A stretch of DNA of 63,966 bases, filler included, from Basidiobolus ranarum (Eukaryota): NCBI GenBank assembly GCA_040143965.1. It is 3 parts of 3 records of this genome, joined end to end, with 100 filler letters (N's around TTAATTAATTAA, not from the genome) between each part and the next. Parts side by side here need not be neighbours in the genome. Positions count along the whole stretch, not along the records: positions 45,398 to 63,966 come from JASJQH010007148.1; 2 more parts are not named here. One strand, 5' to 3'. The position numbers and the translations under genes were made by a program. Shown piece after piece: positions 49,820 through 61,049 of this stretch. A model generated the notes under the pieces. It did no database searches and had not been told where the DNA came from. It saw only the letters and a program-made list of their open reading frames with translations. Each line of letters opens with the position of its first letter. The stretch's first letter is position 1.

Positions 49820-51441
49820 TCACTTTTTGAAGTCATAAACACATGAAAGATCCACTGCTTTGGTTCTACTGTGGGGATTGTAGTTTTCGTCTTTGATTGG
49901 ATAGAGAAGTACATTGAATCGAGGAGTGATTATAACAAGAGTATTTGTGGGAATTGTGATCCAGTCTGCTTGCTCAAAGGTAAGAGGTTCTAGGAGATTA
50001 ACGAGAGGTGGTGGCGATATTAATGACTATCGTTAGGGAGGAGAATCAGAAATACAATAGAGGCCTACCTGATGCTACCACCACTATATCCTCTCTTTTA
50101 TCGGCCTTGATCTGCAAATGACATTGCTTTAGTTTAGCTATCGAATGTCGTATAGAGGGGATGTACAACTTACCATGCGATAGTGGCCTGGTTTGTAAGA
50201 TTCAAAACGTGTTCCTATAGAATCAAGGTGATAAATTAATAAGACAGCAAAATCTTCGAGAAATATTGGCTTTACCTGAAGAGAAATACAACGACGCTGC
50301 TTCCTGAGTGGATGAACTAATATATCGAGTACAAATCACTGTTTTCCCATCTGTCACTGCAAAGTTCATCAAAGAGGGCTACCAGAATCACAAAATGTAA
50401 GGCGAAATATCATAATACGAACTGTATATTAAATAAAGACTACACACCTCGGTTATTCCAATTTCGCGCGTCCATTCATTAAGCAGGGAAATTGTTTGAA
50501 GCAAGGCTTCTTTCAATTCTTCCGGGGTATGACGCGGGCCTTTTGGATCTTCCAACTTTAAAAAATATTGAATGTGAATTCATCCTTTAGAACATTACTT
50601 TCCTACTGGTGCTAGTACCTGATTCAAAAACAGAGCAAACGCACATTCTGAGTCCGTAGTTCCTTGGACAAAAGTGAACAACTCATCCGAAAGAGTGGCC
50701 AGTAATTTCCTCCTTATCTGATATCAAAAGGTGAAATATATAAACTCGAGTAAGAAATTTGAATATCTTTAAAGATAATTATAAGACAAACATTATCAAA
50801 GCCTGACACGTTCCCATTATGCATCCACATCAAATTGCCATACTGCCAAGGATGGCCTACAAAAATATAAATAAACAAAATCTTTTGTATTGAAAAATTT
50901 CAAAAAAATTACAATTTGCTTCTGATGCTAAACCAGCAGTGGAGGCTCTAACGTGAGCAAATACCAAAGGACTTTTGATTTTCTCAGCTAAACGAGTCAA
51001 ATTAACATTGTTCCAAGCAGGCAGAGTCGAGGTGAATATACATGGACTTTCGTCACGTTCTGATTCATACCATCCTGTAATGAGGTGCAGGATGTTAACG
51101 GGATTTCACTTTTCGTAAAAATATCTCGGTTATAAAAGCACAAACCGACACCAAATCCGTCACCTAGATAAAATACAAGCACGTTAAGAGAGGGTGAATT
51201 ACTGGGTAACTATCTGTCCATATTTATACCGTTCAAAGGCCTTCTTGTATCCAGTCTTAACCGGGAATCATAAGATTGGTTAATTATTGAATGAGCTGGG
51301 CGAGTCAATAGCTTTAAAAGAATTAGCAAAAGACGTCTTGAAAGAATTGATATCGCCGTCAGTATTGTTATTTCATAGGATTTTACTCACATCAGCTATT
51401 AAGACTGGCGATTTCCCTTTGTAAAGCAAAAAGCGACACAT
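49820..51441 (-). CDS. DUG3: Class II (Ntn) glutamine amidotransferase, Dug3-like (glutathione degradation); many short exons, absent from the ORF track
   Basis: MCRFLLYKG (N-terminal nucleophile Cys), HSIINQSYDSRLRLD.RRPLNGDGFGVGWY, PAWNN.NL.RLAEKIKSPLVFAHVRAST, HPWQYG...MHNG, QGTTDSECAFALF, SLMNFAVTDG, ASEPL, NVLLYPI. Confidence 0.92.
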
Positions 51442-52091: not shown

Positions 52092-55000
52092 TTACTTTTG
52101 GAATGCTAATCCGTTGGCCGCTTCTATCTGTTTGAAAGGATTTGAAAATCCTTCCTCGGGAATAGTCACTAAGCCGGCTGATGTGTTTGTTGAGGAGGCT
52201 CCTAGACTGGGTAATGATGGCATACCCGCAAGAGAGCTAGTCGGTGAGCTATTGACCAACCCGGTAGCCAAGGCGGCAGACCATCGCTGGTCCATATTTA
52301 CATCTTTAATATCCTTTACCCAAGGGTGTTGTAATAGCTCCTGAGCAGTAGGACGACTTGAGGGAGATCTAGTGAAGCATTTCTTTAAGAAATCCATTCC
52401 CATCTCACTCAATTGTGATTGATCAGGGAGTGGGGGATGTCCAGTCACTACATGGTACATGACTGCCCATTCGTTGTCTAAATTAGACCACGGACGGCGA
52501 CCCGTTGTCATTTCAAGAATACAACACCCTAGTGACCAAATATCTTGTGAGCCTTGACGGCCGCGGTCACCGCCAGTAATAACTTCAGGGGCCATATACA
52601 TTGGTGTGCCGGTCAAGCTGTTTACCTTCATTTGCTGGTTATTTGTGGCACGACCCATGGTCTTCTGGTTTCTGGCGATAACTTTAGCGGCACCAAAGTC
52701 AACGAACTTAATTAGGCCATTGTGATCCAACAGTATATCTAGATAGACAAAGTGGTTAATCTTTTGAACAAAAATATTTGATCTAAACCTTAAATTAAGA
52801 CTTACTATCAGGTTTTACATCTCTATGGACAATACTGTTCTCATGAAGATATTCTAATCCGTGCAACATTTGTAATGTATAGACTTTCGCAACGTTCTCA
52901 TCTTCAATACGGCCGTGTTCAAGTAAGTCAGCAAGTGAACCGCCTTGACAATATTCCATGAAAATATAAACTTTATCACGATGCACTTCAAGACCAAAGT
53001 ATTTGACGATATTGGGATGATCAAGTCTCTCCATAATAGACATTTCCTCTTTGATAGATTTGTGTAGAGCTGTTAATGAAGAAGAGTCTGTGAATCGTAC
53101 TTCTTTGACTGCCATAAGATCACCACTATCTAAATTAATTGCAAGATAGACAGAACCAAATGTACCACCACCGATGAATTTTCCCTGTTGCCAACGTAAT
53201 GAGATATTACTTGAAGAGGAAGCAAGAAATACCAGACTAAGGTCTTCTGGTCGATTATCACTTAACACTTTTCCAATAAGTCTACCATCTTGTTCTTTCG
53301 TGGTGCGATGCTCATCTAGCTCGTTCAATTTACGCATCCATTCGTCGCGGACAGCAATCAAGGAGCTATCACTGGCAAAAGTGCTAAATACTGTCATTTG
53401 TAGGCGTTTGGTGAGATCGTCCATGGCAGCATTCATATTACTTTGCTTCTCTTGCTCAGCTTGGTGTACTGCCTCATGCGCACTCCTAGCACCCGCGATA
53501 TCTACATGGGAAACCAGCAAGGTCATACATATCGCTACTTTACTTTGAAGGAGCTCGAACTCTTCCTCACTAAGCAATAAAATATTGTTGGCTCTTGTCA
53601 TCTGCATGACGAATTCTAGAGCAATTACCGCCCAGCGAAAGGTTTTTTTTTCTGTAGGTACACAATCCAGGACGACAAAATTCACCCAGTCGATTGCTAA
53701 ACGAATCATTGGTAAATTTAGTTGCGATCTAGCGCCAGTCTCCACAAATTTCAGTGCACGTTGTCCGAAATCAGAGGCAAAGGAGAAGCAATTTTCAATT
53801 AAATCTACTGAAGGTGCATGCTTAGTGGATTCGCGAATAACGTTGACATTAAAAAGTATCGTCTCCGCTAGTTTGAAGACGGTTTTCTTAATTTTGTTTT
53901 GCTCTTTGTGTACTTTGGGGATATGTGATTTTTGATTATGGATAATGTTGATACCAATTCCTTTCGTTCTATTCGAAAATACTCTTTTGCTATCAGCAAG
54001 ACTGCTAGAGCTTTCTGAAATAAGCCGAATACGGTTTACGCCGAGGTTGATGTTCATATGATCAATATCAATTTGAATAATCTGGCCATGCCACACAAGC
54101 TCCCGTTTTCCAGGGTTGATCACTAGCAAGTAGTTCTCTTTCCCAATAATATTTTCATTGTCTCTGGCAATAGAGGTCCCCATCAGTCTTCGCACCGAAT
54201 CTGGCTTGTGGCATAGGCTTGAGTCGATCAAAATATAAAGTCCATCTCTCTCAAAAGATCCAGTATAGGCTAACACGTGACCAGAGGCACTAAGAGTTCC
54301 AAGCACGAGATCAAGACTACTAGGCTCAAAGATGTATTCTGATGCACTTTCATACTGATTGCTGAGTAGTTTGGAAAAGCGTAATAACTTTCTAACACCC
54401 ATGCGTACATTTTCCAGTACTCGGTTATACCATTTAATCAGACCGGCTACTGGCATTTCTGGTGGCACTCGCATTTGAGATTCAAAATAGAGTAGAACAC
54501 GACATAGTAATCGATTGGTAAGCGAACAAAACTGTTCAGCAGTTTCCCACTCTCCACCATCAATATACAACGAAATTTCACTTAAGAAATTCCACTCACT
54601 CTCCAGAATCTCAGCTTCTTTGAAATAAACAGCTTTACTGCCACCCTTCAGCCTCCAATGTAGCAATTTAAAATAATACTTCAAACTATCGAAAAGAGCT
54701 GAATCATACCGTTCGTCGATACAATTAGGTACCTCCCAACCGGGGGCCGCTTTAGTCAATTCTTGATATTCATGCTTGATTCGGCACGCCAATGATAAAG
54801 AAACCCTAAAATCTTCTGTCATTTGATCCAGCATCAGGGTGGTTGGATCAGTGATACGTTCTGCATATTCTAGACGTAACCTCAAACATTCTTCCATTAA
54901 GCTGGTAGGGAATCTCACCAATTGTTGAAGTTCATTTGTATATGAAGGCAAGCTCATCTGGGAGTAGGCTGACGCATTTTCAATCATGTTCACTTTAGCC

Positions 55001-56431
55001 TTGGATAAAAGAGAATTAAGAGTGGAGAGTGTACGTTTCTCAAAAGTTCGCTGCAGACCGTTTTCTTTTAAAATACGTTCAATAAAAGACGGCTCATCAG
55101 GATTCGCCGGCGTATCCTTGGGTCCGGCAACTTGCAAACTATCGCTACCAGTCCAATTCTTAAGAATCTTTAATTGCATTTGAATACTCATAGTAACGGT
55201 GCACCACGAAGTTAATGCATCTAGATTAAATTGAAATTCCTGAGATGCATACAAAGGTTTATCATCCATGATAGCTTTACGAGTTGGATAAAGACTTTCA
55301 ATTTGATCCACTTTTTGTAGAATTTCTGCCACTTGTTCAATGACTGGAACTGATTCGTTTTCTATATGGAAACTTATCACTTCCTGTAACACCCCGTCAA
55401 TTTGAGAGCGAGCCTCTTCCAAGAATCTTTTCTCGTGGGAGACACTTGTTTGCCTCAGCAAAGCTCGTATTCCCAGCCAATTCTGGTAACTTAGTACAGC
55501 CTTTTGTTGTTTAGATTTCAAGGAATCTGATATACGCATTTTCTCGGATTTGATTACTTCTCCAGTTAATACCGAAGCCAGCATACCACGCCATTCCAAC
55601 CTTTCTCTGTGGATTTCCTGCGCTTCCGTATCATGAATCAATTCGGAACTTTCGAATTCCAGACTGGGAGTAGCCATAAACGATTTTTCTTCATAGTCGT
55701 CAATCTCTGCGTCATCGGAATCAGAGTCTACAGAGTTAATACGATCGAACTTCTGTGATCCAAAGTAAGGTCCATTTGGGTCTTCGCCATGGCTTTTGAT
55801 GTGGCCATTGGGTCCATGTCCATCACCTCTTGGTATCTCGTATTCATATGTATGACGACCCTGTAAATCGCTAGCAGTCGTAGACCAACTACTATTTGAG
55901 TTAAGATTAGGGCGAACAGGCTCTTCAGGTCCGGTAGTAGCAGATATCTCGCTAGCGTTGATATGTACAATGTTAAGTGATCACAGTAGTATCAGGATTT
56001 GTTCACCAGATAAATTACATACCGAGTTAAATCAAACATATCAGGATTGACTAGAAACCCCTGTTGTACAGAACTCCATACGAAACCCTCATCTACGATT
56101 GGTATATTGAACGTCAACAGTTCTGCCAGAATATCTCTCATTGCTTCCAAAACATGAGGTGTGGTTAAAACGTATGATGTCTAAAAACCAATAAAATTTA
56201 AGTCACAGGAACTTTGACATTAACTGAATGTTGTTTAACCCTATGTAAGAAATCATATCTCATTGGGTTACTTGAAAAATTGGCTTCAAACGTTACCTTC
56301 GTTGGCATGAAAGCATCTAGAATAACAGAGCCACCATGACTCACAATGGTATCGTGGAGTTGTTGGTATCGAACATCGTCAAATCCAGCGATGTAAAAGC
56401 TCTTACCAAGAAAGAGTTTTTCATACGTCAT
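52092..56431 (-). CDS. SSK2: Stress MAPKKK, Ssk2/Wis4/Win1-like, with predicted N-terminal BRCT-like domain (exons 56431-56297, 56180-56023, 55951-52805, 52739-52092)
   Basis: RERLEWRGMLASVLTGEVIKSEK (Ssk2-family regulatory region) and the kinase motifs WQQGKFIGGGTFGSVY, HRDVKPDN, DFGAAK, GTPMYMAPE, NEWAVMY. The upstream exons splice in frame through GT-AG introns. Confidence 0.9.
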
Positions 56432-58218
56432 ATTGATATCCACTCAAGGATGTGTACGATGAAAAATAGCTCTAAAACAATATGAGAAAGTTGGGATCGG
56501 AAATATACTGCCAACGCAGACTAGGGTAGCCTCAATTTAATGTAAATGTACAGAAATATTAAAGAGCAAATGCCGTCAGAATAGATGGAAAAAGAACAGA
56601 ATTGTGCACCAAGCTTTCAACTGACAGAGGGTTGAGAACAAATGGACACGTTGTTGCTTTATCGGTAGATATGTATTTGCTGTGGAAAGCAATGTCACTA
56701 TGTTGATCAACAATATATAGATATGAATAAAAACCAATAATAATAGTAACTGTAATGGGGGAAAGATGCAAGATTGGTTAGTACAACGATGAAACTGGAT
56801 ATCCATTTTATAATAGTACCTATATTACAAGCGTAGTGCGATAAGTCAGCTGAGAACAACCTAGTGACGTTGATCATAGTTGAAGTAGAGATCACATACT
56901 GAGTCAACTGAATCATAAAAGCTATTGAGCATACACGGATGGCTCCTGTTTGAACTGCGAGCCATATGAATCTCCAAAGACTTAACTAATGCCTGAAAGG
57001 GAACCCGATATTGCATGAATTAGTCATCAATTGCTTTCTTCATAAATCACCTACTGCTTTGCATGAAGACTTCACCAATTACTTCCAGTGCCTAAGATCA
57101 TGTGATTCTACCAACTGGTGATTGATTGGCTGATCTAATTTTAGGGCGTACTCCAAATTGGCTAGTAGCTTTAGACGACACTTATGCTAACCTTCCGATC
57201 TCATGATTAAATAACTATATCTGCGAAAGCGAACAAGGATATGGAGTTTGAATTTTCTTTCCAAGTGACATCATCGCCTCCACCACTGTCGGGACTATCA
57301 TTAATTACCTAGTGGATCGGAATATCAAGATTTTGGCAAGGGATCGATGCATGACGATGATCTTGTGATATCATGTAAGCTAGAGTTCATTTCTGCGTAT
57401 AGCATATGAACCTGGCTTTTATTGACCTACTCATTATTTTCAGACACATACATCCAATATGTGTCGCAAATTTAATGACATCAGGAAACGTTGCGGCGTA
57501 TTCAACAACTACCAGAATGATGCTATTTCATAGTCAATCGTCATGTTCGTTTAGTTGTATATTCCTCTATCACAGGCAACGGTCAGCTCGAAATCAGTTG
57601 TTCTTCTACATGTTATAGATTAGAAATGGATTCTAGACCTTTTTCTTTAACTTCAGCCGTCATGTGTATTATCCCTCGGTTTACAACATCGATATCTTTC
57701 ATGTTGTAAATTAGTTTTCAATTTAATGTGTGCTCCTGGTCTCTGGGCCATATTTATACCAAAAAATGGCATGCCACTATTGATGGTTTTTTTGGTTAAT
57801 AGCGCAAGCGACATGACATCAATTTACTAGTATACTTAGCTGTGTATCTGTACATTCCTAACACCAGCAACTGGCAATCAACCTGATGATTGCAGATCCT
57901 ACAAAATGTTGGATGGCTGGTTTGTTTACTGGGTGATTCACAAACTTCATCTGATCTTGAATGCCTTGCTCATATAAAAGGAAAGTTGAATTGTGACAGT
58001 GTACTACTTTATATGAATTAGTGGGCAACAAGGTCAAACCACAAATATCTCGAAAGGTATATGAATAGTTCCGGAAATTCAGGTTTACAACTTAACACTA
58101 ACAGTAGTTTATATGTTGGGATGGAGTATTGAGCTATATATCATGACTTATACCTAGCCTGCTTTAGGCGTAGCAATATATGGATTGGCTTTGAGCATTG
58201 TATATTTATGAATAGTTT

Positions 58219-59322
58219 TTACCTATCTCTTCCACCTCTCCCCTTACCTCTGATGTATTTCGGTTTACCATTTTGTGTAGCTTGTTTTAGACCATAAGGA
58301 TCAAATCTACTGCGTTGCTTACAACGTTTCCCCATTCTATCTCTGCGCAAACTTTCCCCCGGAAACGAGTCCACTTTAGAGGTGTTAACATGCCATTCAA
58401 TTTCTTCGCTATCTGAGGATTCTTCAACCACTTGCTCGACAGAACTATTTATCATGTCGACATCTGATGTAAATTCTTCGTCCGACATATTACTCAGTAT
58501 CTCTCCAAGTATATCCTCATTTTCAAAGGACTCATTTAGTATGTCTTCTTTCGTGAACGGACAATCAATCTCGTGCATAATTGTGTCGTTCAATAGTTGT
58601 AAATGGGGTGAAATGGAACCAGAACTAGATTCATGCGAAATTTTATCGAAAATGTGTAATGCAGGACTTAATGAAATATAGGAAGATAGAGGTGAAGGTG
58701 AAGGTGAACCATTGCTTGATAGATGGTCTGAGGGCAAATCAAATATAGAGTTCACTGATGGAACTACTTCTGAGCCATCTGCAAGTAGTTGAACCTCTTG
58801 AGGACCTTTGTTTTCACTTAATAAAGTAGTAACATGAGAATAAGTACTTATTTCTTGCAACTCCTCTTCGTACAACTCACTAGGTGATAAAGGTAGAATC
58901 TTTGAAAAATGTTCATATTTAATACCAAAATTTTCATCAAACCCCTCTTCCTCGGTTTCTTCTTCAGTCTCTTCTTTCACATTTTCGTGAAAGTTGATTT
59001 TTTCTCTTAGACTTAAGATATTTTTCAGGCTTTTTCCAGAGTGTTTTCCAGGTATCTCTAACTCACTCTCCTCCAATTCCGAACTAAAAGGAGACATAGA
59101 AGGGGAAATTCTCCGTCCGTTGCAAGGTAAGCCTTTTCCACTCTGGCGAAATCTGTCAAGAGAACTTTCTGGAATTGTAACTTCGAGATCAGTATCCTCA
59201 CCAAGTGGTGAAATTTCACTCTCTGAACTGGAATCGAAGTATGTATATGAGCTAGGGTTCAGTCCCGGTAAAGGAAGGCGCTTTCCGGCTGTTGCCATAT
59301 GAATTGAGGTTTCGTGTGGCAT
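58219..59322 (-). CDS. Hypothetical intronless acidic S/E-rich protein with a basic C-terminal tail
   Basis: 367-aa ORF, low complexity, ending KRCKQRSRFDPY...RGKGRGGRDR. Confidence 0.6.
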   Translation of the reverse strand: MPHETSIHMATAGKRLPLPGLNPSSYTYFDSSSESEISPLGEDTDLEVTIPESSLDRFRQSGKGLPCNGRRISPSMSPFSSELEESELEIPGKHSGKSLKNILSLREKINFHENVKEETEEETEEEGFDENFGIKYEHFSKILPLSPSELYEEELQEISTYSHVTTLLSENKGPQEVQLLADGSEVVPSVNSIFDLPSDHLSSNGSPSPSPLSSYISLSPALHIFDKISHESSSGSISPHLQLLNDTIMHEIDCPFTKEDILNESFENEDILGEILSNMSDEEFTSDVDMINSSVEQVVEESSDSEEIEWHVNTSKVDSFPGESLRRDRMGKRCKQRSRFDPYGLKQATQNGKPKYIRGKGRGGRDR

Positions 59323-61049
59323 GTTGAAGAGGCTTATTACACCAATACAGTACCCAGACTAGTAGAGTGAAGTATTCAATAGGTTTCTCACAAATAACTG
59401 GGTTATTACTATTATGAGTCTTGCTGTTTTTTAGGGAACCTCAATGAAGTCGCACTGAGGCTTAATGGTCAATAAAGTTGATGGAGTTGGATGTATTCAG
59501 TAACCAATACTCTATGACCAAGGTGTCATAAAATCTCAAGTTAGATCTACAGTGGGTAAGAGATGTTACCATATGCTTAATGGGTTTATTAACGTGACGT
59601 GCTGTAGACTGTTGAACATCTAGTCAGATCTAAGAAACGAGCGTAAAACAAGGCCAATCAATGCGCTATCTGATTGACAGAAATAGCATATTAAAAAGAT
59701 ACCTTCACATTCCGAGGGCTGCCTCTTCACCCATTGGTGATAAGTCTAGCCTATACTCCCAAATAGGCAGGTTCACAAAAGAAGCACAAAGACCATACTT
59801 AGTTGATCAAAATGATCAGCCCTGCAATTGCGGTATTTGGAAGGGGAAAGACATGTGAATGAAGATAATCATATAAAACCATTCCACACCCTTGCATTAG
59901 GACATTGACAAGATACAATACCTGGACGGAATTTTACAGTAGCTTTCATGATGGAGAGCAGATCATGCAAATGTTTTGCTACTACGATTTGGTCTAACTT
60001 CGAGATCATTCTTTTCCAGTGATTTCAAGGGAAATTAACTGTCTCAAGTATAGATGGTTTGATCGACTCTACATTCCTAATCTAACTTAGCTTGAACTCG
60101 CGAATGGACGAGGATTTCTGTAGATCTGATACGACAACAACTCTGCTGAACATCCACTCCTGGTTCTTCGACACACATGCTCCAGAATCCCTCAATGAAC
60201 ATATGATTATCGGTAATGGCACAAAGAAACCTCAGGTCGACAAATTCCCTGCATATTATCTACCAACCGAGACACATTCTTTTATGTATTTTCACCAATA
60301 ACAAAGTATCCAAACTAGAACATACACAAAGGGTAGTAGATATTGGTTTCAGTATTTACTCTAGATGCTCATTGTATCCGCTATGATGTCATACATTCTT
60401 CCATAGTGTGCCTACGAAAGAATGGGTTATAGCTCAGACACAGTAAGCCTTAATACTTAACTAAACAAGAACTGAAGTACGGGTAAGCTCGAGCTAATGG
60501 ATAAGATACATATATTTTTCAACAGACCCACTGAAACAGAAGCTATAACAAACTGTATTACTAGTTTGATAGGTACATTGCACTTACTGGTTTACCACCT
60601 CATACGTAGGCTTGATTTAGATAATACCTTATGAAATGGGAAAATCACAGGAGTAATACAGTTTCCATCTCAAGGAATTGGTACCGTACAAAGTAGACAA
60701 TCTTATGGACTTTGTACTAAACACCTACCAAAGAAGCCGATATTTACGCAGCGGCATCCAGAAACTTTTAGTAGTTAATGCCGGATAAAAGACATCTTCA
60801 AATATATTCCTTTCATTTGTAAGGAGAATATTGAAATTCCTAGCTCTACTATCTCGATCTCCATCGAATGGATAGAAGTGCAAAAACAACCTACCGCAAT
60901 CATAACATTACTAGGATATAGGGCTCAAGGTTGCTGTGCAAGGAACTGATAAAACATCATTGCATTGGCTATGCTAGGCCATAGTAATTCCGATATTTGA
61001 CCTAAATGCAATGGCTGCTTTGTTATTGACAATGCTTCAGAGCACCAGT

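What the first reader, a model, noticed from the sequence alone, without database searches (positions are those of the whole stretch)
55951..56431. BRCT-like domain fused to the N-terminus of the Ssk2/Wis4 stress MAPKKK
Seen: exon 1 (MTYEKLFLGKSFYIAGFDDVRYQQLHDTIVSHGGSVILDAFMPTK, donor gtaacg) joins exon 2 (TSYVLTTPHVLEAMRDILAELLTFNIPIVDEGFVWSSVQQGFLVNPDMFDLTR, donor gtatgt). Exon 2 joins in phase (CG|C) to a stop-free exon continuous with the 960-aa kinase ORF. Known: LF.G..F.I.G / I...GG.V / T.hV / IPIV...[WF]V..S is the BRCT consensus, and I do not know of a BRCT domain in yeast Ssk2/Ssk22, S. pombe Wis4/Win1 or animal MEKK4. Inference: a lineage-specific input module that could couple phospho-protein or DNA-damage signals to the HOG/p38 pathway. 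This is the most novel-looking architecture in the window.
Basis: partly seen in the sequence, partly recalled or inferred. Interest (0 to 1): 0.7.

Follow-up and report, generated by a model that had tools for sequence, protein, structure and literature searches.

The report
BRCT domain on a fungal stress MAPKKK
The stress-pathway kinase gene (Ssk2/MEKK4 type) of the fungus Basidiobolus ranarum really does begin with a BRCT protein-interaction domain, and the same fusion is found in several other early-branching fungi, so it is probably an old feature that yeasts and moulds lost rather than a local invention.

Summary
On the minus strand, exons 56431-56297 and 56180-56023 splice in phase into the long kinase ORF. 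The four-exon model translates letter for letter into an annotated NCBI protein of Basidiobolus ranarum (1361 aa). Residues 3-82 match Pfam BRCT above its curated cut-off. A profile of the domain finds only BRCT domains among the best solved structures, and an AlphaFold2 model has the BRCT fold.

The fusion is not lineage-specific. BRCT + MEKK4_N + kinase occurs in glomeromycetes, Calcarisporiella, entomophthoralean fungi, a second B. ranarum paralog and the chytrid Spizellomyces. It is absent from the Mucorales, Umbelopsis, Mortierella-group and Dikarya orthologs examined. A glomeromycete-like metagenome contig has a phase-0 intron at the same BRCT position as B. ranarum. The likeliest history is an ancestral fusion with several losses.

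The domain lacks the canonical phosphoserine pocket (0 of 16 sequences have Ser/Thr before the loop Gly) and is acidic. A phospho- or DNA-damage reader is therefore the less likely function. I favour a phospho-independent docking or regulatory module, which is inferred and not shown. I obtained no RNA evidence. The architecture is already in databases, and six searches found no paper describing it.

The parts
56297..56431 (-). Coding exon 1 (aa 1-45): first half of the BRCT domain (beta1, alpha1, GG turn, beta2). Start codon at 56431, donor GTAACG.
   Evidence: (BRCT 23.2 bits on this exon alone)
56181..56296 (-). Intron 1: 116 nt, GT..AG, phase 0, 30% G+C. It lies between K45 and T46, the same BRCT position as an intron in glomeromycete-like contig L001.
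56023..56180 (-). Coding exon 2 (aa 46-97 plus 2 nt of codon 98): second half of the BRCT domain (beta3, alpha2, beta4 'IPIV', alpha3 with W80) and its C-terminal tail. Donor GTATGT.
55952..56022 (-). Intron 2: 71 nt, GT..AG, phase 2 (CG|C), 34% G+C. It separates the BRCT from the linker.
52806..55951 (-). Coding exon 3: acidic Ser/Asp-rich linker (aa 99-212), conserved ERLEW...VLTGEVIKSEK motif (from aa 214), MEKK4_N-type regulatory region, and the N-lobe of the kinase domain.
52739..52805 (-). Intron 3: 67 nt, GTAAGT..AG, inside the kinase domain. Its removal restores HRDVKPDNILLD.
52092..52738 (-). Coding exon 4: kinase C-lobe and C-terminal tail, with the stop codon ending at 52092.

Best explanation
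SHOWN. The region holds the first two coding exons of the Ssk2/Ssk22/Wis4/MEKK4-family MAPKKK gene of Basidiobolus ranarum. These exons encode one complete BRCT domain (aa 3 to about 94). The protein order is BRCT, then an acidic and probably disordered linker of about 115 aa, then the conserved ERLEW motif and MEKK4_N-type regulatory region, then a C-terminal Ser/Thr kinase domain. The fusion is shared by orthologs in glomeromycetes, Calcarisporiella, entomophthoralean fungi and Spizellomyces chytrids. It is missing from the Mucorales, Umbelopsis, Mortierella-group and Dikarya orthologs examined.

INFERRED, history. The fusion is old and was lost several times. It dates at least to the common ancestor of Basidiobolus, Entomophthorales, glomeromycetes and Calcarisporiella, and possibly to the chytrid split.

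INFERRED, mechanism (about 0.4 on its own). The domain lacks the canonical phosphoserine pocket and is net acidic. It therefore most likely acts as a phospho-independent protein-docking or cis-regulatory module on a flexible tether. It would either recruit a partner to the kinase's N-terminal autoinhibitory region or contact that region itself. That N-terminal region is where, from established knowledge, Ssk1 acts on yeast Ssk2 and GADD45 acts on MEKK4. A BRCT-less isoform starting at Met93 may also be made, as is annotated for the paralog.
For: Gene model: the four exons joined in a script equal P0001 exactly, and all three introns are GT..AG with lower G+C than the exons.

BRCT identity:
- Pfam BRCT scores 27.9 bits against a cut-off of 21.3, over profile positions 2-77 of 78.
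- A profile of 11 orthologous domains hits ECT2, Rad4, RFC1, PARP1, PARP4 and REV1 BRCT chains down to E 5e-9.
- The AlphaFold2 model has mean pLDDT 74.7 and a beta-alpha-beta-beta-alpha-alpha-alpha order of elements.
- All 48 Foldseek PDB hits listed contain a BRCT domain; the best are REV1, Rad4 BRCT3,4 and PARP4, with TM 0.55-0.72.

Kinase family: MEKK4_N 85.9 bits and Pkinase 240.9 bits. The best hits are named Ssk2/Wis4/'Suppressor of Sensor Kinase'.

Distribution:
- A local HMM finds this BRCT in 26 of the 167 Ssk2-family proteins fetched.
- Pfam BRCT is above cut-off in Rhizophagus, Funneliformis, Acaulospora, Ambispora, Gigaspora, Cetraspora, Calcarisporiella, the B. ranarum paralog P0316, and Spizellomyces P0273 and P0315. 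P0315 carries BRCT + MEKK4_N + Pkinase in one 2022-aa model.

Orthology: a tree of 40 proteins, with the BRCT and linker cut off in 36 rows (4 rows without the motif went in whole), recovers the major fungal groups. BRCT-bearing rows are interleaved with BRCT-less ones; for example, Calcarisporiella is sister to Umbelopsis plus Mucorales with 99% support.

Shared intron: glomeromycete-like contig L001 has a phase-0 intron at ...SDQ|TNYLVTT, the position of B. ranarum ...PTK|TSYVLTT.

Constraint: the two B. ranarum paralogs are 82.7% identical in the BRCT and 61.4% in the adjacent linker.

Non-canonical pocket: 0 of 16 sequences covering the site have Ser/Thr before the loop Gly (they have A, V, F, H, Y, L, R or K). 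The net charge of the core is -10 to 0.
Against:
- A stand-alone product is possible: retaining intron 2 would end a BRCT-only protein after 12 more codons (ORF 55992-56180).
- The paralog's annotated 'variant 2' lacks the BRCT, so the domain may be dispensable for part of the protein pool.
- The chytrid BRCT matches the profile of the other Ssk2 BRCTs only weakly (13.9 bits, against 24.7 bits to generic Pfam BRCT). An independent gain in chytrids is therefore not excluded.
- Entrophospora models and one partial Ambispora model lack the domain within glomeromycetes. These could be losses or bad gene models.
- The pocket motif is recalled rather than taken from a tool, and some BRCTs bind phospho-ligands in other ways.
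- No partner is known, and nothing here shows docking or regulation.
- The B. ranarum models lack the N-terminal MKxSVRF-type motif that most other fungal orthologs carry.
Confidence: 0.7

Rival explanations
1. One reading: the BRCT is a canonical phosphopeptide reader, or a reader of DNA ends or poly(ADP-ribose), that feeds DNA-damage or phospho-protein signals into the HOG/p38-type cascade.
For: The best sequence and fold matches are DNA-damage and replication BRCTs: Rad4/TopBP1, REV1, PARP1, PARP4, RFC1 and XRCC1. From established knowledge (recalled), animal MEKK4 is activated by the damage-inducible GADD45 proteins, so a damage input to this kinase family has precedent.
Against: 0 of 16 sequences have Ser/Thr at the pocket position before the loop Gly. 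The alignment shows no conserved Lys in the alpha2 region. The domain core is net acidic (-10 to 0), which is unlike the basic DNA- or PAR-binding surfaces as I recall them. It is a single BRCT and not a tandem pair.
Confidence: 0.15
2. Gene-model artefact: the BRCT exons belong to a separate small upstream gene, or are not expressed, and the kinase protein really starts downstream, for example at Met93.
For: There is no RNA evidence here. The paralog has an annotated BRCT-less 'variant 2' that starts exactly at Met93. B. meristosporus models start inside or after the BRCT. Reading on from exon 2 into intron 2 reaches a stop after 12 codons.
Against: The splice is in phase, with consensus GT..AG introns of the same style as the kinase-domain intron, and removing that intron restores a conserved kinase motif. 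The same N-terminal BRCT sits in one model with the kinase in many independently annotated species. The truncated models begin in the middle of the BRCT, which points to truncation and not to absence. An intron position is conserved with L001, where the BRCT exons lie about 0.5 kb upstream of the ERMEW motif on the same strand.
Confidence: 0.05
3. Recent, lineage-specific domain gain in Basidiobolus, or several independent gains in different early-diverging lineages.
For: The distribution is patchy. Counting by eye on the tree, a few gains or a few losses fit about equally well. The chytrid BRCT is only weakly similar to the others.
Against: The Basidiobolus BRCT scores 94 bits against a profile dominated by glomeromycete sequences, though that profile also contains the Basidiobolus sequence itself. 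The domain always occupies the same place, N-terminal to the acidic linker and the ERLEW motif. The phase-0 intron is at the identical position in Basidiobolus and L001.
Confidence: 0.05
4. A decaying relic: a BRCT fold kept by inertia with no remaining function in Basidiobolus.
For: The pocket residues are lost. A BRCT-less isoform is annotated. The domain has been lost repeatedly in other fungi.
Against: The reading frame is intact in two paralogs. Paralog identity is 82.7% in the BRCT and 61.4% in the linker. Core residues are conserved across distant lineages: L25, I29, G33 and T46 are invariant in 11 sequences. The AlphaFold2 model is folded.
Confidence: 0.05

Closest known systems
S. cerevisiae Ssk2/Ssk22 and S. 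pombe Wis4/Win1 (HOG / stress-activated MAPKKKs)
   Same: Same family. It has an MEKK4_N-type regulatory region, the ERLEW...VLTGEVIKSEK motif and a C-terminal kinase domain. It groups with fungal orthologs in the tree, and database hits carry these names.
   Different: None of the ascomycete and basidiomycete orthologs examined has a BRCT, including S. japonicus, Saitoella and Taphrina. S. cerevisiae Ssk2 itself was not among the proteins fetched, so its lack of a BRCT is recalled. The B. ranarum protein also lacks the N-terminal (R/K)xVRF/W motif seen in many of them.
Animal MAP3K4 (MEKK4/MTK1)
   Same: It shares the Pfam MEKK4_N region and the kinase domain. From established knowledge, it has an N-terminal autoinhibitory region that is relieved when an activator (GADD45) binds.
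   Different: No BRCT is known in MEKK4. This is recalled and was not tested here; the Atlas cluster listing shows at most three families. Fungi use the Ssk1 response regulator instead of GADD45 (recalled).
BRCT-bearing Ssk2 orthologs already in public databases (e.g. Rhizophagus, Gigaspora 'MAP kinase kinase kinase wis4', Calcarisporiella, Spizellomyces 'BRCT domain-containing protein')
   Same: Identical domain order: BRCT, acidic linker, MEKK4_N, kinase. One glomeromycete-like contig shares the BRCT intron position.
   Different: Most carry about 45-100 further residues before the BRCT; in glomeromycetes and Calcarisporiella this includes an MKxSVRF motif. The Basidiobolus and Massospora models start at or just before the BRCT.
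ECT2 (Rho GEF with N-terminal BRCT domains)
   Same: ECT2 is the best sequence match among solved structures, at E 5e-9. It is a precedent for BRCT domains at the N-terminus of a cytoplasmic signalling enzyme, where (recalled) they autoinhibit the catalytic domain.
   Different: ECT2 has three BRCTs and, as I recall, binds a phosphorylated partner. Here there is one BRCT, without the pocket residues, on a kinase.
Single BRCT domains of REV1, PARP1, PARP4 and the XRCC1/Lig3 pair
   Same: These are the best fold matches, with TM up to 0.73. They are single BRCTs used for protein-protein docking rather than tandem phospho-readers (recalled).
   Different: They are nuclear DNA-repair proteins. Sequence identity to them is only 14-26%.

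Membership tests
BRCT domain (Pfam PF00533) | Match to the family profile above its curated cut-off | tested here: met
   P0001, which equals the window's spliced product, scores 27.9 bits against a cut-off of 21.3, over residues 3-82 and profile positions 2-77 of 78. Exon 1 alone scores 23.2 bits. BRCT_2 scores 25.8 bits, just under its cut-off of 27.3.
BRCT domain (Pfam PF00533) | BRCT fold (four-stranded parallel sheet flanked by helices) | tested here: met
   The AlphaFold2 model has pLDDT 74.7, strands at 11-15, 35-37 and 48-51, and helices at 19-31, 53-69 and 76-85. The short fourth strand (residues 73-74) falls below the listing length. All 48 Foldseek PDB hits listed contain a BRCT domain, with E from 2.8e-4.
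BRCT domain (Pfam PF00533) | Hallmark core residues: the Gly-Gly turn after alpha1 and the aromatic Trp in alpha3 (motif recalled) | tested here: met
   G33-G34 and W80 are present. G33 is invariant and G34 at least 90% conserved among 11 orthologs.
Phosphopeptide-binding BRCT subclass | Ser/Thr-Gly in the beta1-alpha1 loop and Lys in alpha2 forming the phosphate pocket (motif recalled, as in BRCA1 S1655/G1656/K1702) | tested here: not met
   The residue before the loop Gly is A, V, F, H, Y, L, R or K in 16 of 16 sequences, and never S or T. The alignment shows no conserved Lys in the alpha2 region. The alignment to a reference phospho-binding BRCT was not made residue by residue.
Ssk2/Ssk22/Wis4/MEKK4 MAPKKK family | C-terminal Ser/Thr protein kinase domain of the STE11-like group | tested here: met
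   Pkinase scores 240.9 bits over residues 1019-1287. The HRDVKPDN and GTPMYMAPE motifs are visible in P0001.
Ssk2/Ssk22/Wis4/MEKK4 MAPKKK family | Long N-terminal regulatory region of MEKK4_N type (PF19431) | tested here: met
   MEKK4_N scores 85.9 bits against a cut-off of 24.9.
Ssk2/Ssk22/Wis4/MEKK4 MAPKKK family | Orthology with characterised fungal members | tested here: met
   It is 40-53% identical over 88-100% of the query to fungal proteins named Ssk2-type, Wis4 or STE11/SSK. It sits inside the fungal Ssk2 tree.
Ssk2/Ssk22/Wis4/MEKK4 MAPKKK family | Activated by an Ssk1/Mcs4-type response regulator and phosphorylates a Pbs2/Wis1-type MAPKK | not testable with these tools
   This is a biochemical property. 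No whole genome is held for the window, so the partners could not be looked for.

The most novel reading that the evidence does not exclude
The fungal HOG-pathway MAPKKK was ancestrally a BRCT-kinase. The BRCT would be a second input port, independent of the two-component Ssk1 input, that docks a still unknown partner: for instance another BRCT protein, or a checkpoint or cell-cycle factor, functionally parallel to the GADD45 input of animal MEKK4. Dikarya, Mucorales and the Mortierella group would each have discarded this port. If so, the textbook yeast wiring is a reduced version of the original pathway.
Probability: 0.15. Interest if true: 0.75.

Novelty: new variant of a known kind. Interest (0 to 1): 0.45.

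Why it matters
Ssk2/Ssk22, Wis4/Win1 and MEKK4 are the entry kinases of the HOG/p38 stress cascade. Their regulation has been worked out almost only in Dikarya yeasts and mammals. A conserved extra domain at the N-terminus in chytrids, Basidiobolus, Entomophthorales, arbuscular-mycorrhizal fungi and Calcarisporiella implies an input or control step that the model organisms cannot show. It gives a concrete handle (the BRCT) for finding that step by pull-down or deletion. It is also a clean case of repeated domain loss, supported by a shared intron position. It bears on stress signalling in mycorrhizal symbionts and in an opportunistic pathogen. It is not a new kind of system: both parts are well-known families, and the fusion is already visible in database annotations.

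Tried and rejected
- Own genome: none is held, so paralog DNA, dN/dS and pathway partners could not be examined.
- Word-index search with the BRCT alignment among longer proteins: it returned only 8 proteins, all already known, and missed 4 of its own 11 input proteins. It is uninformative about distribution.
- Exhaustive profile search of 1.84 billion representatives with the BRCT alignment: 1342 hits at E up to 0.001. The 150 listed were dominated by multi-BRCT proteins, and none matched the rest of P0001 in a local phmmer run. The likely cause is that clusters at 50% identity are represented by BRCT-less Ssk2 proteins. It gave no information on other lineages.
- ESM Atlas: residues 1-330 gave no usable hit. 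The whole protein gave only generic Ssk2/MAP3K4 clusters with at most three families shown.
- Earlier findings of this scan: nothing found.
- Homodimer test of the BRCT domain with complex prediction: no verdict (score 0.10, mark 0.32). This is neither support nor evidence against.
- Upstream exon carrying the MKxSVRF motif of other orthologs: a regex scan of the minus strand over 56432-58218 found no candidate.
- Logan members of the Rhizophagus cluster as possible transcript evidence: the fragments that could be placed on the Rhizophagus protein all lie downstream of the BRCT, and one 46-aa ENA fragment did not match it.
- Papers, six searches: BRCT+Ssk2 (2 papers), BRCT+MAPKKK+fungi (4), Basidiobolus+HOG pathway (1), BRCT+MEKK4 (8, all about BRCA1 by title), Ssk2+Rhizophagus (4 held, 3 listed), and BRCT domain+protein kinase+early-diverging fungi (5 held, 4 listed). 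I read passages in PMC4177888, PMC7181643, PMC10037146 and PMC12111849. None mentions a BRCT on this kinase family, and the other listed papers are unrelated by title or abstract. The Rhizophagus paper studied Ste11, Pbs2 and Hog1, not the Ssk2 ortholog.
Full report
WHAT IS THERE

- The ATG is at 56431 and is preceded by an in-frame TGA.
- Exon 1 is 56431-56297 (45 codons), with donor GTAACG.
- Intron 1 is 116 nt.
- Exon 2 is 56180-56023, with donor GTATGT.
- Intron 2 is 71 nt.
- Exon 3 begins at 55951, so CG|C makes an Arg codon and the frame runs on into the long ORF.

That ORF is 1061 aa from stop to stop (52795-55980), not 960 aa. The kinase domain is cut by a third intron (52805-52739). 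The last exon ends with the stop at 52092.

A script joined the four exons into 4086 nt and 1361 aa. This is identical to a protein in the public collection, P0001, NCBI 'Suppressor of Sensor Kinase (SLN1) [Basidiobolus ranarum]'. Introns are 30-34% G+C and exons 39-41%. NCBI taxonomy places the species in the phylum Basidiobolomycota.

IS IT A BRCT DOMAIN?

Yes, on several independent grounds.
- Exon 1 alone reaches 23.2 bits against Pfam BRCT, whose cut-off is 21.3. Exon 2 alone matches no family.
- The spliced protein reaches 27.9 bits over profile positions 2-77 of 78.
- A profile of eleven orthologous domains (alignment A1) matches 53 distinct solved sequences at E up to 1. Fifteen of the sixteen best are BRCT domains of ECT2, Rad4, RFC1, PARP1, PARP4 and TopBP1, down to E 5e-9; the exception is a designed TIM barrel.
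- An AlphaFold2 model of residues 1-100 has mean pLDDT 74.7 and the expected order of strands and helices.
- All 48 Foldseek PDB matches listed contain a BRCT domain, with TM 0.55-0.72 normalised to the query.

The rest of the protein is an ordinary Ssk2/MEKK4-type MAPKKK, with MEKK4_N at 85.9 bits and Pkinase at 240.9 bits.

IS THE FUSION PECULIAR TO THIS LINEAGE?

No. Among the 120 best relatives of the long ORF, the precomputed Pfam column lists BRCT for orthologs from Rhizophagus, Funneliformis, Acaulospora, Ambispora, Gigaspora, Cetraspora and Calcarisporiella. My own scans confirm scores of 27.7 to 52.5 bits at residues of about 40-130.

Further cases came from other searches.
- Geosiphon (17.9 bits) and Massospora (18.7 bits) are just under the cut-off.
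- A search with an alignment running from the BRCT to the conserved ERLEW motif added Entomophthora and the chytrid Spizellomyces punctatus. UniRef already names that chytrid protein 'BRCT domain-containing protein'. Its model stops at the glycine loop of the kinase.
- Its cluster mate from Spizellomyces sp. 'palustris' (2022 aa) carries BRCT (23.8 bits), MEKK4_N and Pkinase together.
- A second B. ranarum paralog (P0316) has the domain at 28.6 bits.
- The B. meristosporus, Entomophthora and Neoconidiobolus models start in the middle of the BRCT. They are truncated models, not BRCT-less genes.

A local HMM finds the domain in 26 of the 167 family members fetched. Several of the 26 were used to build that HMM, so the informative result is the 141 misses. 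The misses include every Mucorales, Umbelopsis, Mortierella-group, ascomycete and basidiomycete protein in hand. Many of these have an intact N-terminal (R/K)xVR(F/W) motif, so their N-termini are probably complete.

ONE ORIGIN OR SEVERAL?

I built a maximum-likelihood tree of 40 proteins. The BRCT and linker were cut off in 36 rows. Four rows without the motif were used whole, and columns filled in under half of the rows were dropped.

The tree recovers the chytrids (used as the root), two entomophthoralean/Basidiobolus groups, the Mortierella group, Calcarisporiella as sister to Umbelopsis plus Mucorales (99%), the glomeromycetes (100%) and Dikarya (96%). BRCT-bearing and BRCT-less proteins are therefore orthologs.

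Counting by eye on that tree, the pattern needs about three or four changes whichever way it is read. Two further facts favour losses.
- The Basidiobolus domain scores 94 bits against a profile made mostly of glomeromycete sequences, although that profile also contains the Basidiobolus sequence itself.
- Of 78 metagenome loci encoding the ERLEW motif, 64 have at least 1 kb upstream of it, and only one has the BRCT there. That locus, L001 (31% G+C, glomeromycete-like N-terminus MKNTVRFNT), has a phase-0 intron at ...SDQ|TNYLVTT. This is exactly the position of the B. ranarum intron at ...PTK|TSYVLTT. A phase-2 intron follows the domain in both.

There is a caveat for the chytrids. Their BRCT is only weakly similar to the others (13.9 bits), so their membership in the same event rests on position alone.

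IS IT UNDER CONSTRAINT?

Between the two B. ranarum paralogs, identity by region is as follows.
- BRCT: 82.7%
- Adjacent linker: 61.4%
- Regulatory region: 89.3%
- Kinase domain: 96.7%

L25, I29, G33 and T46 are invariant in the eleven-sequence alignment. This argues against a decaying relic.

WHAT DOES IT DO?

Nothing here shows function. The following is inference.

As I recall it, the phosphoserine pocket of phospho-binding BRCTs uses a Ser/Thr-Gly in the beta1-alpha1 loop and a Lys in alpha2. In all 16 sequences that cover the site, the residue before the Gly is A, V, F, H, Y, L, R or K. No conserved Lys is seen in the alpha2 region. The domain core carries a net charge of -10 to 0. It is a single domain, joined to the rest of the protein by a Ser/Asp/Glu-rich linker of about 115 aa.

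This profile fits a phospho-independent docking or cis-regulatory module better than a reader of phosphopeptides, DNA ends or poly(ADP-ribose). In this kinase family the N-terminal part is autoinhibitory and is the site where activators bind: Ssk1 on Ssk2, and GADD45 on MEKK4 (established knowledge, not tested here). ECT2, the best sequence match among solved structures, is a precedent for N-terminal BRCTs controlling a cytoplasmic signalling enzyme.

A test of homodimerisation gave no verdict and is listed only under Tried and rejected.

The paralog has an annotated 'variant 2' that is an exact suffix from Met93. A BRCT-less isoform may therefore exist, which would make the domain a switchable feature.

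WHAT REMAINS OPEN

- No transcript data could be reached and no genome is held for the window.
- The B. ranarum and Massospora models lack the N-terminal MKxSVRF-type motif of other orthologs, and I found no upstream exon for it.

NOVELTY

Both parts are textbook families, and the fusion is visible in public annotation. Six literature searches, with passages read in four papers, found no description of a BRCT on Ssk2, Wis4 or MEKK4.

I rate it a new variant of a known kind. It is of moderate interest as evidence that the yeast HOG MAPKKK is a reduced form of an ancestral BRCT-kinase, and as a handle for finding an input that model fungi lack.

Noticed in passing
P0316/P0317 (B. ranarum paralog, not in the window); equivalent Met93 in the window at about 56040-56038 (-): The paralog has an annotated 'variant 2' protein that is an exact suffix starting at Met93. 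This is a BRCT-less isoform. The window's gene has the same MFDLTR start context.
   Followed up: partly
window 56432-58218 (-), upstream of the start codon: Most fungal orthologs begin with a conserved (R/K)xVR(F/W) motif: MKxSVRFxTP in glomeromycetes and Calcarisporiella, RKVRW in Mucorales, RGVRF in ascomycetes. The Basidiobolus and Massospora models lack it, and no candidate upstream exon was found by regex.
   Followed up: partly
L001:147-1271 (+), metagenome contig: This is a glomeromycete-like Ssk2 locus. Its BRCT is split by a phase-0 intron at the same position as in B. ranarum, and a phase-2 intron follows directly after the domain.
   Followed up: yes
P0247 (1464 aa, from the representative search): This protein has an N-terminal BRCT of similar type followed by DUF4062, a NACHT NTPase and TPR repeats. 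It is a STAND-type architecture with a BRCT head and is unrelated to the kinase.
   Followed up: partly
P0121 (850 aa, from the representative search): This was the best hit of the BRCT profile (229.8 bits). It consists of five tandem BRCT copies separated by acidic spacers. Its organism and function were not looked up.
   Followed up: no
window 58219-59358 (-): A 379-aa open frame rich in Ser and Glu lies upstream of the kinase gene on the same strand. It has no Pfam match at E up to 0.01.
   Followed up: partly
window 50595-51105 (-): Short open frames downstream of the kinase gene give a weak class-II glutamine amidotransferase (GATase_4) match of 16.8 bits, below the cut-off. This is probably a multi-exon neighbouring gene.
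   Followed up: partly
P0012 (Entrophospora sp., 1307 aa): This Ssk2 model begins with a ubiquitin sequence (MQIFVKTLTGK...; precomputed Pfam lists PF00240 and PF01020). It is probably a merged gene model. Entrophospora models in general lack the BRCT.
   Followed up: no
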